From: a virus | Taxonomy: Duplodnaviria > Heunggongvirae > Uroviricota > Caudoviricetes | Direction: 5' to 3' (one strand) | Length of the DNA: 64,000 nucleotides | Virus record (IMG/VR): IMGVR_UViG_3300028833_000063 | Span: 1-64,000 of that record | Shown: positions 51,329 through 53,900 of the stretch, piece by piece | How positions within the stretch are numbered: position 1 is the stretch's first letter | How the letters are laid out: every line of letters begins with the position of its first letter | Translations under genes and position numbers: made by a program | Notes under the pieces: generated by a model | The model's database searches: none | Told to the model about the DNA's origin: nothing | What the model saw: the letters and a program-made list of their open reading frames with translations, nothing else

Positions 51329-51463
51329 TCGTAGGCCAACACCGGTGGTAGGAGTGATTAAAGCATAAACGGTCACTTGACAGTCTACGATGTGATAGGG
51401 GATATGGGCGCAAGAATTTACTTGCGCCTAACCCCGGACCAATTATATAAAGGAGTGAATTAA

Positions 51464-51550
51464 ATGGCTGATATTGATATTTTTAGTTTGGAGCCTAGCA
51501 AAATTTCAAGGGATCTTAAAGGTAAATTTTTATTGATTTACGGTCAGCCT
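51464..51550 (+). CDS. AAA_24/Sak4-like recombination ATPase, exon 1
   Basis: strong RBS AAAGGAG; ends ...GKFLLIYGQP(K), the first half of a Walker A, then stops at the intron boundary. Confidence 0.5.
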
Positions 51551-52600
51551 AAATAATTGGGCCTTATATAAGCGATTATATAAGATAATTACTGGAAAAA
51601 TCTGGGAGCCTGAAATGGCAATCAGAGCGGAAGTTGTTCCCTAAAAAGAATAACACGCACAACGATTAGGACAATTAAACATTAAGGAGGGTTCTATCTA
51701 TGGATATTACCGTTATTAAGCAATTATACGAAAGCGGCAAAAGCTTGACGCAGTTAAGTAAAGAAACTGATATTAGTACTTATAAATTAAAAAAGATACT
51801 AATAGCAGAAGGTATTCATATTAGAGGCAAGGAAGAGCAGAATAAGTATTCTCCCCAGAATCAGCGGAAATATGAAGTTTGGGATGATTTTTTTGAAAAA
51901 TTAAATCCAACTAATGTATATCTAATGGGATTTTTAGCCGCGGATGGAAGTATCCAGAAAGACGGCGGAATTAAAATTGGACTTTCTACCATTGATAAAC
52001 AATTTTTAGAAAAAGTTAGAATTATACTACATAGTAATTATCCTATTAGAGATTATCTTACAAAAGACGGATTTTCTGTTTCTGAATTTATTTTTCGTAG
52101 CGAAAAGATTAAACAGAAATTAGCAGAATATGGAATAGTAAATAATAAAACAAAGACATTTACATTCCCTTATAATCTGCCAAAAGAATTTTATATTGAT
52201 TTTATTCGTGGTTACTTTGATGGCGATGGTACATTCTGTATGGCAGGTCAATATCGTAGAGCCTCATTGTGTAGCTACAATCAAGAATTTTTACAATCAG
52301 TTGTAGATATACTTGAAAATCAATATAATATTCCGGCTGTAAAAATACAGAAAGATAATAGAGGAAATACTTATTATTTCCAATATTCTCAAACCTCTGC
52401 TCAGAAATTATATGAATTATTTTATAAAAATAATCCCGTACTTTACTTACCTCGTAAATATGATAAATGCTTACAACTCTTTGGTGAAATAAAGTCCCAC
52501 GAGCCAGTAACTTCTCAAGAAGAAGAAAAGATAATCTGACCTTACGAGAATAATAATCGTAAGAATTATCGGATAAAGAGCCGATAAGATAACATATGTG
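51551..52600 (+). mobile_element. group-I-like self-splicing intron carrying a LAGLIDADG homing endonuclease ORF
   Basis: about 1050-nt insertion that bisects the Walker A; 5' exon ends in U and the insertion ends in G, as at group I splice sites; the HE ORF lies inside. Confidence 0.5.
51700..52539 (+). CDS. LAGLIDADG homing endonuclease with N-terminal HTH
   Basis: two LAGLIDADG motifs, LMGFLAADGS and IRGYFDGDGT; N-terminal KSLTQLSKETDIS HTH; GGAGGG RBS. Confidence 0.8.
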   Translation: MDITVIKQLYESGKSLTQLSKETDISTYKLKKILIAEGIHIRGKEEQNKYSPQNQRKYEVWDDFFEKLNPTNVYLMGFLAADGSIQKDGGIKIGLSTIDKQFLEKVRIILHSNYPIRDYLTKDGFSVSEFIFRSEKIKQKLAEYGIVNNKTKTFTFPYNLPKEFYIDFIRGYFDGDGTFCMAGQYRRASLCSYNQEFLQSVVDILENQYNIPAVKIQKDNRGNTYYFQYSQTSAQKLYELFYKNNPVLYLPRKYDKCLQLFGEIKSHEPVTSQEEEKII

Positions 52601-53509
52601 AAGACTGGTAAATCCACATTTGGTAGCCAACTACCTCGTTCTCTGTTTCTAAACTTTGAACAAGGAACTAATGCCCTAGCTGGTATTCGCGCGGTTCCAA
52701 TTCTACGTTGGACTGACGCTAAGAAAGTTCTTACTCAGCTTCGTAAGCCTCAAGCTAAGGAAATGTATGACTCAATTGTTGTGGATACTGCTTCAATCGC
52801 CTGGCAGCTATGTGAAAAGTATATTTGTCAGCGCGAAAATGTTGATAGTATTCGTGACGTACCTTGGGGTCAAGGTTGGAATATGCTAAAGACCGAGTTC
52901 TCTGAGTTCTGGCGTGAAATTACTCTATTGGGTTTTGGTATTCTATTTATCGCGCATAGTAAGGATAAACCTACCGAAATGCGTGATGAAGATGGTAATG
53001 AAATTACTGCGGTTGCGCCGGACCTGCCTAATCAGGCATATACTATTATTAATTCAATTGTGGATATTATTGGATATCTGCAGGTACAGATGAATCCAGA
53101 CGGAACTTCTGAACGATTCCTATATACTCGTTCTACGCCTTCTGTATTTGCCGGTAGCCGTTATCAATATCTTGCGCCAAAAATTAAGTTTGGCTATCAG
53201 GAATTAGTAGATGCTATTGGCGATGCTATTGATATGGCTGTTGAGAAAGATGGCGCACAGGTTACTGATCATACTGAATTTGCTCAGATTAAAGATAGGC
53301 CCTTCAATGAAGTTATGGCTGAAGCTAAAGAAATTTGGGTTAAGTACCTGGAAATCGGCGGCGAAGAGAATAAAGATCAGCATCTGATGATTATGAAGGA
53401 TATTATTAAGAAGGTATTTGGTTCTGAGGACTTTAAACTAAGTCAGGCAGTGCCTTCTCAAAGTAGCTTGGTTGAATACTTTATTGACGAAGTAAAGCAA
53501 TTAATGTAA
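52601..53509 (+). CDS. AAA_24/Sak4-like recombination ATPase, exon 2
   Basis: begins (K)TGKSTF completing the Walker A; Walker B SIVVDTAS; no RBS of its own. Confidence 0.55.
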   Translation, partial: KTGKSTFGSQLPRSLFLNFEQGTNALAGIRAVPILRWTDAKKVLTQLRKPQAKEMYDSIVVDTASIAWQLCEKYICQRENVDSIRDVPWGQGWNMLKTEFSEFWREITLLGFGILFIAHSKDKPTEMRDEDGNEITAVAPDLPNQAYTIINSIVDIIGYLQVQMNPDGTSERFLYTRSTPSVFAGSRYQYLAPKIKFGYQELVDAIGDAIDMAVEKDGAQVTDHTEFAQIKDRPFNEVMAEAKEIWVKYLEIGGEENKDQHLMIMKDIIKKVFGSEDFKLSQAVPSQSSLVEYFIDEVKQLM

Positions 53510-53721: not shown

Positions 53722-53858
53722 AAATGCGGTGGCGGAATAGGTAGACGCATGGGAGTTTCAGGAGACGGGAATACGGATAAAAACGTAATGGTACTGTTCC
53801 CAAGGGTTCAATTCCCAATAACCAGCGCAGTGCACGGCGCATGTGAGGTGCAAATCCT
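53722..53858 (+). tRNA. tRNA-Leu-like element, possibly with an intron or tandem tRNA fragments
   Basis: 5' GCGGTGGCGGAATAGGTAGACGC matches the tRNA-Leu acceptor/D-arm; termini atgcgg/ccgcat pair across about 136 nt; T-arm tgagg-tgcaaat-cctca; internal T-arm-like gggttcaattccc. Confidence 0.3.
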
Positions 53859-53900
53859 CATCCGCATATAATAATAGTCGTGCAAAACTATATAGTTTTA

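What the first reader, a model, noticed from the sequence alone, without database searches (positions are those of the whole stretch)
51464..53509. Recombination ATPase split inside its Walker A by a group-I-like intron carrying a LAGLIDADG endonuclease
The 5' exon has a strong RBS and ends at ...GKFLLIYGQP(K). The downstream ORF resumes with (K)TGKSTF..., so together they rebuild one P-loop, G-Q-P-K-T-G-K-S-T. The intervening sequence is about 1050 nt. It begins after a U and ends with a G, as at group I splice sites. It contains a complete LAGLIDADG endonuclease with both dodecapeptide motifs and an HTH. The 3' exon has no RBS of its own.
Basis: partly seen in the sequence, partly recalled or inferred. 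Interest (0 to 1): 0.75.

Follow-up and report, generated by a model that had tools for sequence, protein, structure and literature searches.

The report
Mobile group I intron in phage recombinase
A phage recombination-ATPase gene (Sak4-like) is interrupted inside its ATP-binding loop by a 1,050-base self-splicing group I intron carrying its own homing endonuclease, which is a familiar kind of selfish element, although this intron family is common in phage genomes and the standard Rfam model does not detect it.

Summary

- **The split.** Exon 1 (51464-51550) and exon 2 (52601-53509) join in frame. They give a 331-aa Sak4-like/AAA_24 ATPase whose Walker A motif (GQPKTGKS) exists only after the join.
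- **Relatives.** In 70 of 84 related IMG/VR loci the gene is uninterrupted across this site, with up to 98% amino-acid identity. Eight loci carry a homologous ORF-containing insertion at exactly this position.
- **The intervening sequence (51551-52600).** It follows a U that forms a U·G wobble in P1, and it ends in G. It folds into a complete group I core: P1-P9.1, the P3/P7 pseudoknot, and an invariant G-C pair next to a bulged base in P7.
- **Covariation.** 95.5% of cells pair, against 34-42% in slid controls. 40 of 54 pairs show compensatory changes across 35 family members.
- **The endonuclease.** The 279-aa double-motif LAGLIDADG ORF sits in the P7.1 loop. ORF-less relatives have a plain hairpin there.
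- **Rfam.** RF00028 misses this intron and all of its roughly 80 relatives found here.

Splicing and homing themselves are inferred, not shown. This is a new member of a known kind, of moderate interest.

The parts
51450..51455 (+). Shine-Dalgarno (AAGGAG) serving exon 1, and therefore the whole spliced gene
   Evidence: Read directly from the sequence; 8 nt upstream of ATG 51464.
51464..51550 (+). Exon 1 of the Sak4-like/AAA_24 ATPase gene: 29 codons, M1-P29, ending ...YGQP. The last base, U51550, is the 5' splice-site U.
   Evidence: Intron-less homologues run straight through this point. All intron-containing alleles have GCCU here.
51551..52600 (+). Group I intron, 1,050 nt. An in-frame stop (UAA 51554-56) follows the splice site by one codon. 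The terminal base G52600 is the omega-G.
   Evidence: Presence/absence polymorphism at exactly this site; covariation-supported core.
51547..51562 (+). P1: GCCU|AA (51547-52) pairs with UUGGGC (51557-62), with the wobble U51550·G51559 at the splice site. The internal guide sequence is 51557-62.
   Evidence: Sequence; 100% paired in the 6 ORF-containing alleles. The ORF-less cousin L057 has a different P1 (CUACGGU/GCCGUAG) that matches its own exon.
51563..51584 (+). P2 hairpin: 9 bp with a GCGA (GNRA) tetraloop
   Evidence: L043 keeps the stem through A-U to G-C and G·U changes, and its loop GUAA is still GNRA.
51589..51595 (+). P3 5' strand (UUACUGG); pairs with 52504-52510
   Evidence: All 6 pairs covary in the family. 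RNAalifold predicts it independently.
51601..51626 (+). P4 (51601-05 / 51622-26) enclosing P5 (51608-10 / 51617-19)
   Evidence: 98% paired, 3 compensatory pairs.
51627..51658 (+). P6 (51627-29 / 51656-58) and P6a hairpin (51633-39 / 51648-54)
   Evidence: all 3 P6 pairs and 7 of the 8 pairs of the P6a helix (counted with one extra conserved G-C pair) show compensatory changes.
51662..51668 (+). P7 5' strand: A51662, bulged C51663, then G51664-A51668. It pairs with 52532-52537. G51664-C52536 is the presumed guanosine-binding pair.
   Evidence: the helix is 100% paired in 35 sequences. The G-C pair is invariant. The pair flanking the bulge is A-U in 21 sequences and G-C in 14.
51669..51672 (+). 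P7.1 5' strand (GGAC); pairs with 52494-52497 (GUCC) and encloses the endonuclease ORF
   Evidence: GGAC/GUCC, GGAU/AUCC and GGUU/AACC in different alleles. It is a plain hairpin in ORF-less relatives.
51684..51690 (+). Shine-Dalgarno (AAGGAGG) of the endonuclease ORF
   Evidence: Sequence; 9 nt before ATG 51700.
51700..52539 (+). Intron-encoded single-chain, double-motif LAGLIDADG homing endonuclease, 279 aa. Its last ~15 codons overlap P7.1', P3', P8, J8/7 and P7'.
   Evidence: Pfam LAGLIDADG_3 4e-15 in two stretches; PHROG 4645 9e-44; PDB 2dch 'putative homing endonuclease' 5e-4; 84-94% identical ORFs in 4 related introns.
52494..52510 (+). P7.1 3' strand (52494-97), conserved linker CACGAG (52498-503), and P3 3' strand CCAGUAA (52504-10)
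52511..52525 (+). P8 hairpin (CUUCU / AGAAG)
   Evidence: 81% paired with 4 compensatory pairs. Its length varies, so the alignment is imperfect here.
52526..52537 (+). J8/7 (AAAAGA, 52526-31) and P7 3' strand (UAAUCU, 52532-37)
   Evidence: The sequence closely resembles the canonical AAGAUAUAGUCU element of the RF00028 consensus shown.
52541..52585 (+). P9 hairpin (52541-47 / 52557-63) and P9.1 hairpin (52568-72 / 52581-85)
   Evidence: 100% and 99% paired, with 4 and 6 compensatory pairs.
52601..53509 (+). Exon 2 of the Sak4-like ATPase gene: K30-M331 plus the TAA stop. It opens KTGKST, the second half of Walker A.

Best explanation
This is a mobile group I intron of IA-like architecture. 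It sits between codons Pro29 and Lys30 of a phage Sak4-like (AAA_24) recombination ATPase gene, in the middle of the DNA that encodes the Walker A P-loop.

How it most likely works:
1. The gene is transcribed as one pre-mRNA.
2. The intron RNA folds into P1-P9.1, including the P3/P7 pseudoknot.
3. A free guanosine bound at the G51664-C52536 pair of P7 attacks the phosphodiester bond after U51550, which forms a U·G wobble with G51559 in P1.
4. The freed 3' OH of exon 1 then attacks after the terminal G52600.
5. The ligated mRNA is translated from the single ribosome-binding site at 51450. The product is a 331-aa ATPase with an intact GQPKTGKS loop.

The LAGLIDADG endonuclease is encoded in the loop of P7.1 and is translated from its own ribosome-binding site. 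It would cut intron-less alleles of the same gene in co-infecting relatives, and double-strand-break repair would copy the intron in (homing).

Shown here: the anatomy, the reading-frame restoration, the presence/absence polymorphism, and the covariation-supported fold. Inferred: catalysis, splicing in vivo, endonuclease activity and its target.
For: Reading-frame restoration
- The fused protein matches AAA_24 in one stretch across the junction and PHROG 124 'Sak4-like ssDNA annealing protein' at 1e-53.
- It aligns end to end with uninterrupted homologues in isolated phages.

Presence/absence polymorphism
- 70 of 84 IMG/VR loci are contiguous at the site. L003 is 98% identical over residues 1-331, and its codon differences from the window are 119 synonymous against 8 non-synonymous.
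- 8 loci (7 contigs) carry a homologous 1.05-1.24 kb intron at the identical position. Every copy follows GCCU and ends in G.
- Only 9 of 49 intron-less alleles have GCCU at that place.

An ORF-less cousin
- A 252-nt ORF-less intron with the same core lies in the same P-loop in L057, L058, L059 and L064.

Fold
- On 8 alleles, 91% of cells pair against 34-42% in slid controls, and 22 pairs show double changes.
- RNAalifold, run on 35 sequences, independently recovers P3, P4, P5, P6, P6a, P7.1, P9 and P9.1, with 33 of 43 pairs compensatory.
- With P7 and P8 added, 95.5% of cells pair, 40 of 54 pairs are compensatory, and 0 of 500 shuffles reach the observed values.
- P7 has an invariant G-C pair next to a bulged base, and J8/7-P7' resembles the RF00028 consensus.
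- The 5' half gives a partial RF00028 match starting at P1 (14.8 bits, E=0.09).

Other signs
- An in-frame stop lies one codon into the intron, a feature noted for many bacterial and phage group I introns (PMC3984707).
- The endonuclease ORF is intact and has its own Shine-Dalgarno.
Against: - RF00028 does not reach its gathering score on this intron. It gives no hit at all on the ORF-less relatives, even at E<=10.
- P1 is invariant among the ORF-containing alleles, so it has no covariation of its own.
- P10 is only about 2 bp.
- There is no transcript or biochemical evidence.
- The subgroup (IA1, IA2 or IA3) could not be assigned, because no subgroup models were available.
Confidence: 0.93

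Rival explanations
1. The gene is split by a free-standing endonuclease cassette. Nothing is spliced, and the phage makes a 30-aa N-terminal peptide and a separate 303-aa C-terminal protein that may or may not assemble.
For: Free-standing endonuclease insertions that split genes are known in T4-like phages (my own knowledge, not tested here). A GTG codon (52598) opens the downstream ORF. Rfam finds no intron at threshold.
Against: - About 210 nt of non-coding sequence flanking the ORF is conserved as a covarying RNA fold with group I topology.
- The same fold occurs without any ORF in the same P-loop of relatives.
- There is no Shine-Dalgarno before GTG 52598.
- The Walker A motif would be cut in two, yet the exons stay under strong purifying selection in intron-containing alleles.
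Confidence: 0.03
2. The intron is decayed and no longer splices, so the recombinase gene in this phage is a pseudogene.
For: No direct evidence of splicing exists. P10 is weak. One related copy (L040) has a TAG inside its endonuclease ORF.
Against: - Every core helix is intact in the window copy.
- Six distinct ORF-containing alleles that differ at many positions all keep the helices through compensatory changes.
- Both exons and the endonuclease ORF are open in the window.
- The TAG in L040 falls at a Gln position, as do the TAGs in L085/L086. That fits stop-codon recoding rather than decay.
Confidence: 0.03
3. The insertion is another kind of intervening element, such as a group II intron or an intein.
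For: LAGLIDADG proteins also occur in inteins and in a few organellar group II introns (my own knowledge).
Against: - The insertion is not in frame: a stop codon follows exon 1 by one codon, and the endonuclease has its own start. That excludes an intein.
- No RF00029 or other intron model hit was found.
- Only about 210 nt is non-coding, far too little for a six-domain group II intron, and the fold found has group I topology.
Confidence: 0.005

Closest known systems
Phage group I introns of subgroup IA carrying homing endonuclease genes (T4 td/nrdB/sunY, SPO1 and Bastillevirinae DNA polymerase introns, Twort-like Staphylococcus phage introns)
   Same: - Same core order: P1-P2-P3-P4-P5-P6-P7-P7.1-P3'-P8-P7'-P9.
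- U·G wobble at the 5' splice site, a terminal G, and an A-rich J8/7.
- An extra hairpin between P7 and P3'.
- An endonuclease ORF looped out of a peripheral hairpin, with the end of the ORF overlapping the core.
- Insertion into a highly conserved motif of a DNA-metabolism gene, and an in-frame stop just inside the intron (PMC3984707, PMC11878797).
   Different: - The host gene (Sak4-like/AAA_24) was not found as an intron host in the searched literature.
- The endonuclease is LAGLIDADG, which is the less common type in phage introns (PMC3984707).
- RF00028 recognises a canonical intron elsewhere in this same window (95 bits) but not this one or any of its relatives.
Intron with a LAGLIDADG endonuclease in the 'recombinase A-like' gene of Staphylococcus phages Romulus/Remus (Silviavirus)
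   Same: A recombination ATPase gene of a large Firmicutes phage is interrupted by an intron encoding a LAGLIDADG endonuclease that is about 32% identical to this one.
   Different: The host gene family differs (annotated as RecA-like, not AAA_24/Sak4). The Romulus region (L001) gives no hit to the 5'- or 3'-core profiles of this family.
Uninterrupted Sak4-like ssDNA-annealing ATPases (Enterococcus phages VRE9/EF1, SPbeta YorG)
   Same: The spliced product aligns over residues 4-331 at 29-38% identity and carries the AAA_24 domain.
   Different: Those genes are uninterrupted.

Membership tests
Group I intron | The 5' splice site follows a U that forms a U·G wobble within P1, made with an internal guide sequence | tested here: met
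   GCCU|AA (51547-52) pairs with UUGGGC (51557-62), giving U51550·G51559. It is paired in all 6 ORF-containing alleles. The ORF-less cousin has a different guide sequence that matches its own exon. All intron-containing alleles have GCCU, against 9 of 49 intron-less alleles.
Group I intron | The intron ends with a guanosine (omega-G) | tested here: met
   G52600. All of the related copies end in G just before the exon 2 codon.
Group I intron | Conserved core: P3-P8 and P4-P6 domains with the strand order P3-P4-P5-P5'-P4'-P6-P6'-P7-P3'-P8-P8'-P7', that is, a P3/P7 pseudoknot | tested here: met
   95.5% of cells pair against 34-42% in slid controls, 40 of 54 pairs are compensatory, and no shuffle out of 500 reaches the observed values. 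P3 and P7 both covary, and they cross each other.
Group I intron | A guanosine-binding site: a conserved G-C pair in P7 next to a bulged nucleotide | tested here: met
   The G-C pair is present in 35 of 35 sequences. There is a bulged base at the 5' neighbour, and the next pair is A-U in 21 and G-C in 14. Guanosine binding itself was not tested.
Group I intron | Score at or above the gathering threshold of the curated Rfam model RF00028. This is a detection criterion, not a defining property. | tested here: not met
   - No hit on the whole intron.
- 14.8 bits (E=0.09) for the 5' half alone, against a threshold of 50.
- Nothing for the 3' half.
- Nothing for the ORF-less relatives.
- ORF-disrupted and divergent phage introns are reported to give only partial Rfam/GISSD matches (PMC11878797).
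Group I intron | Guanosine-dependent self-splicing that yields ligated exons | not testable with these tools
   This needs an in vitro splicing assay or transcript data.
Group I intron, subgroup IA | Extra pairing(s), P7.1 and P7.2, between P7 and P3' | tested here: met
   P7.1 (51669-72 / 52494-97) covaries. Many ORF-less relatives carry a further hairpin inside it. The IA1/IA2/IA3 subgroup could not be assigned, because no GISSD models were available.
LAGLIDADG homing endonuclease | Two LAGLIDADG motifs in one chain (monomeric type) | tested here: met
   LMGFLAADGS (about residues 75-84) and IRGYFDGDGT (about residues 169-178). Pfam LAGLIDADG_3 matches in two stretches at 4e-15, PDB 2dch at 5e-4, and PHROG 4645 at 9e-44.
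LAGLIDADG homing endonuclease | Site-specific cleavage of the intron-less allele | not testable with these tools
   The presence/absence polymorphism at one exact site fits homing but does not prove it.
Sak4-like / AAA_24 ATPase | AAA_24 domain with a Walker A motif GxxxxGK[ST] | tested here: met
   AAA_24 at 1.6e-46 over profile positions 4-195 of 195. GQPKTGKS is formed only by joining the exons.
Sak4-like / AAA_24 ATPase | ssDNA annealing or recombination activity | not testable with these tools
   Only the annotation of homologues is available.

The most novel reading that the evidence does not exclude
The intron belongs to a large, coherent family of phage group I introns. At least 82 copies turned up in the loci fetched here, and it also occurs, unannotated, in isolates: Enterocloster phages, the phiCD211 group, Listeria LIS04, Yersinia phiR1-37 and crAss-like phages. 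The curated Rfam model cannot see the family even when no ORF is present. It may therefore be a structurally distinct subgroup, marked by the conserved CA(C/A)GAG linker, an ORF site in P7.1, and conserved P9.1 loop and 3' tail. That would mean introns in gut and rumen phage genomes are systematically under-annotated. The same P-loop is invaded at two sites 6 nt apart by family members with different guide sequences.
Probability: 0.2. Interest if true: 0.55.

Novelty: new member of a known kind. Interest (0 to 1): 0.4.

Why it matters
**Annotation.** Gene callers will report a 30-aa fragment, a 'hypothetical endonuclease' and an N-terminally truncated ATPase that lacks its P-loop. The true product is one 331-aa Sak4-like recombinase.

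**Biology.** This is a clean example of a homing element targeting the most conserved codons of an essential-type motif. The natural population is polymorphic. It includes intron-less alleles, ORF-containing alleles, ORF-less alleles at a site 6 nt away, and a second intron of the same family at codon 119/120.

**Methods.** A whole family of phage group I introns escapes RF00028, so intron counts in phage metagenomes that rely on that model are underestimates.

Tried and rejected
- **My first manual fold was wrong.** It had P3 = UAAUU/AAUUA next to P7, P7 = CGAUUA paired with UAAUCG at 52565-70, and P8 enclosing the ORF. The alignment of alleles shows that 52541-63 is a self-contained covarying hairpin (P9). 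It also shows that the real P3' and P7' lie inside the 3' end of the ORF. The RF00028 partial alignment makes the same mistake for P3'.
- **An alternative P7 register was dropped.** C51663-G52538 with a bulged U52537 gave way to A51662-U52537 with a bulged C51663, because that pair covaries (A-U in 21, G-C in 14).
- **Megablast found nothing.** Searching the region against 50,697 phage records gave no match, so this phage has no close sequenced relative there.
- **Rfam gave only noise.** Searches on the whole region, on the 3' half, on the ORF-less cousin and on 20 loci with family members gave no group I hit there, only chance snoRNA/sRNA-type hits above E of about 1.
- **The 20-nt degenerate pattern scan was not mostly chance.** I expected chance hits, but nhmmer showed that nearly all hits are real family members.
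- **Group II intron, intein and free-standing endonuclease** readings were considered and rejected (see rival explanations).
- **The tRNA-like stretch at 53727-53870** gave only a T-arm-sized tmRNA fragment match.
Full report
**1. The observation**

The window holds three consecutive same-strand ORFs.
- A 30-codon ORF at 51464-51556, with a good Shine-Dalgarno at 51450-55. It ends ...KGKFLLIYGQPK and then a stop.
- A 279-codon ORF at 51700-52539, with its own AAGGAGG.
- A 303-codon ORF at 52598-53509. It opens GTG-KTGKSTF and has no Shine-Dalgarno.

Joining 51550 to 52601 gives a 331-aa protein. It matches Pfam AAA_24 in a single stretch (residues 22-217, profile positions 4-195 of 195, 1.6e-46) that runs across the junction. 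It also matches PHROG 124, 'Sak4-like ssDNA annealing protein', at 1e-53.

The middle ORF is a two-motif LAGLIDADG protein. Pfam LAGLIDADG_3 matches in two stretches at 4e-15. PHROG 4645 matches at 9e-44, and PDB 2dch at 5e-4.

**2. Comparison with relatives fixes the boundaries**

No close relative exists among 50,697 phage records at the DNA level. By protein, the best isolates are Enterococcus phages. They are 38% identical over residues 4-331, and their genes are uninterrupted.

IMG/VR holds many close relatives.
- Of 84 loci, 70 carry the gene uninterrupted across the P-loop. Many of them encode all 331 residues in one continuous match, and the exon 1 and exon 2 flanks abut with no gap in the 36 loci where both could be placed.
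- The best, L003, is 98% identical in protein. Its codon differences from the window are 119 synonymous against 8 non-synonymous. The gene is therefore under strong purifying selection, and the fused reading frame is the real one.
- Eight loci from seven contigs (L040/L084, L043, L056, L071, L083, L085, L086) carry a homologous insertion of 1,049-1,239 nt at exactly the same position. In every one the insertion follows ...GCCU and ends in ...G.
- In intron-less alleles the third base of the Pro codon is free (A 24, T 20, C 3, G 2). GCCU occurs in only 9 of 49. This is what a P1/wobble constraint on intron-bearing alleles predicts, although shared ancestry could contribute.

**3. The RNA fold**

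Rfam's RF00028 finds a canonical group I intron elsewhere in the window (1769-2014, 95 bits) but nothing here.
- The 5' 166 nt alone give a truncated match that begins at P1 (14.8 bits, E=0.09).
- The 3' part gives nothing.

I therefore derived the structure by comparison. Aligning the alleles overturned my first manual model and gave the following.

| Element | Window coordinates | Note |
|---|---|---|
| P1 | 51547-52 / 51557-62 | U51550·G51559 wobble |
| P2 | 51563-71 / 51576-84 | GCGA loop |
| P3 | 51589-95 / 52504-10 | |
| P4 | 51601-05 / 51622-26 | |
| P5 | 51608-10 / 51617-19 | |
| P6 | 51627-29 / 51656-58 | |
| P6a | 51633-39 / 51648-54 | |
| P7 | 51662, 51664-68 / 52532-37 | C51663 bulged |
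| P7.1 | 51669-72 / 52494-97 | encloses the ORF |
| P8 | 52511-15 / 52521-25 | |
| J8/7 | 52526-31 | AAAAGA |
| P9 | 52541-47 / 52557-63 | |
| P9.1 | 52568-72 / 52581-85 | |
| omega-G | 52600 | terminal G |

The last ~15 codons of the endonuclease ORF overlap P7.1', P3', P8, J8/7 and P7'.

On eight ORF-deleted cores, 91.2% of cells pair against 34-42% when partners are slid. Twenty-two pairs change on both sides, against 3-6 in the slid controls.

**4. An ORF-less cousin, and a large family**

Four more distant loci (L057, L058, L059, L064; 58% protein identity) have a 252-nt insertion in the same P-loop.
- It is an ORF-less intron with the same core.
- P7.1 is a plain 5-bp hairpin exactly where the window's intron holds its ORF.
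- It lies 6 nt upstream, giving YG|APKTGKST rather than YGQP|KTGKST.
- Its P1 is different (CUACGGU/GCCGUAG, again with a U·G wobble) and matches its own exon.

A scan of IMG/VR with a 20-nt pattern from J8/7-P7'-P9, followed by nhmmer with 5'- and 3'-core profiles, gave two results.
- The window contains only this one member.
- The fetched loci hold at least 59 ORF-less and 23 ORF-containing copies. The long insert always lies between P7 and P3'.

This set includes a second intron of the same family at codon 119/120 of the Sak4 gene in L056, L071 and L063.

I built an alignment from 34 non-redundant ORF-less members plus the window core.
- RNAalifold independently predicted P3, P4, P5, P6, P6a, P7.1, P9 and P9.1, with 33 of 43 pairs compensatory.
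- With the P7 pseudoknot and P8 added, 95.5% of cells pair against 34-42% in slid controls. Forty of 54 pairs have compensatory changes, and none of 500 shuffles reaches the observed values.
- P7 is 100% paired. Its G-C pair is invariant, with a bulged base beside it, and the next pair is A-U in 21 sequences and G-C in 14. This is the arrangement of the guanosine-binding site in canonical group I introns (established knowledge).
- J8/7-P7' (AAAAGA-UAAUCU) closely resembles the RF00028 consensus AAGAUA-UAGUCU displayed.

**5. Why Rfam fails**

RF00028 gives no hit on the ORF-less L057 intron even at E<=10 in a 291-nt search. It finds none of the family members in 20 further loci, while it does find an unrelated canonical intron in one of them, L102.

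A recent survey of Bastillevirinae introns reports three related points (PMC11878797).
- ORF-disrupted phage introns often give only partial matches, or matches on one side only.
- The Rfam seed lacks some subgroups.
- Phage intron diversity may extend beyond the current subgroups.

The family also occurs, unannotated, in isolated phages: Enterocloster CB457P2 and its relatives, the phiCD211 group, Mammaliicoccus phi116, Bacillus PJN02, Listeria LIS04, Yersinia phiR1-37 and crAss-like cr6_1.

**6. Mechanism**

The best explanation is a mobile, self-splicing group I intron.
- Guanosine-initiated cleavage occurs after U51550.
- Exon ligation follows, after G52600.
- Translation of the ligated mRNA from the single upstream ribosome-binding site gives a Sak4-like ATPase with an intact Walker A.
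- The in-frame UAA one codon into the intron fits the pattern noted for bacterial and phage introns (PMC3984707).
- The LAGLIDADG protein, expressed from its own ribosome-binding site in the P7.1 loop, would cleave intron-less P-loop sequences and drive homing.
- Targeting codons for functionally critical residues is the known strategy of homing endonucleases (PMC3984707).

The anatomy, frame restoration, polymorphism and covariation are shown. Catalysis and homing are inferred.

**7. Rivals**

- A non-spliced split gene is contradicted by four things: the conserved covarying RNA, the ORF-less version in the same P-loop, the missing ribosome-binding site for the 3' part, and purifying selection on both exons in intron-bearing alleles.
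- A dead intron is unlikely. All helices are intact, and six divergent alleles maintain them through compensatory changes.
- An intein or a group II intron is excluded by the reading frames and by size.

**8. Novelty**

Group I introns with homing endonucleases in phage DNA-metabolism genes are well known. A LAGLIDADG-bearing intron in a RecA-like gene of Staphylococcus phages Romulus and Remus is annotated, but it is not of this RNA family. I found no report of an intron in a Sak4/AAA_24 gene.

This is therefore a new member of a known kind. The added point of interest is that the intron belongs to a widespread family invisible to the standard model.

Noticed in passing
window 1769-2014 (ORF 1204-1827 upstream): A second, canonical group I intron (RF00028, 95.4 bits) lies among the 15 tRNA genes at 240-8616. 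It follows an ORF (1204-1827) whose stop codon falls inside the intron, so another protein-coding gene is probably split here. The host gene was not identified.
   Followed up: partly
L085/L086 (exon codons 39, 50, 80, 218; endonuclease codons 19, 54), L040 endonuclease codon 86, and one intron-less allele with GGT TAG CCT: Some close relatives have in-frame TAG codons exactly where the window and other relatives have CAA/CAG (Gln). This occurs in both the recombinase exons and the endonuclease. It suggests TAG-to-Gln stop-codon recoding in those phages. The window itself shows no such TAGs in these genes, and no suppressor tRNA was called.
   Followed up: partly
L056 2391-3496, L071 2895-4000, L063 approx. 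2945-4000, L061: In some relatives the same Sak4 gene carries a second ORF-containing intron of the same RNA family, about 1.1 kb long, between codons 119 and 120. L056 and L071 carry both introns. This one is absent from the window.
   Followed up: partly
L057 4082-4333 (also L058, L059, L064): An ORF-less member of the family sits 6 nt upstream of the window's insertion site in the same P-loop (after GGU of Gly rather than CCU of Pro). Its guide sequence matches that different exon context. So there are two staggered insertion sites for one intron family.
   Followed up: yes
L094 3358-3566 and 3723-3934; L100; L125; L126; L110: Several viral contigs carry two or three copies of this intron family within a few kilobases, ORF-less and ORF-containing. 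The host genes were not examined.
   Followed up: no
window 53727-53870: An intergenic stretch downstream of the recombinase gene looks tRNA-like by eye (GCGGUGGCGGAAUAGGUAGACGC... GGGUUCAAUUCCC ...). ARAGORN does not call it, and Rfam gives only a 13-nt T-arm-like fragment match (tmRNA model, 10.6 bits). It is unexplained.
   Followed up: partly
L122 5139-5213 (- strand): A RAGATH-18 RNA (RF03064, 76.9 bits) lies on a viral contig that also carries a member of the intron family.
   Followed up: no
L057 7132-7323; L102 3624-3845: Canonical RF00028-positive group I introns lie a few hundred to a few thousand bases from members of the Rfam-negative family. Both intron types therefore coexist in the same phage genomes.
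   Followed up: no
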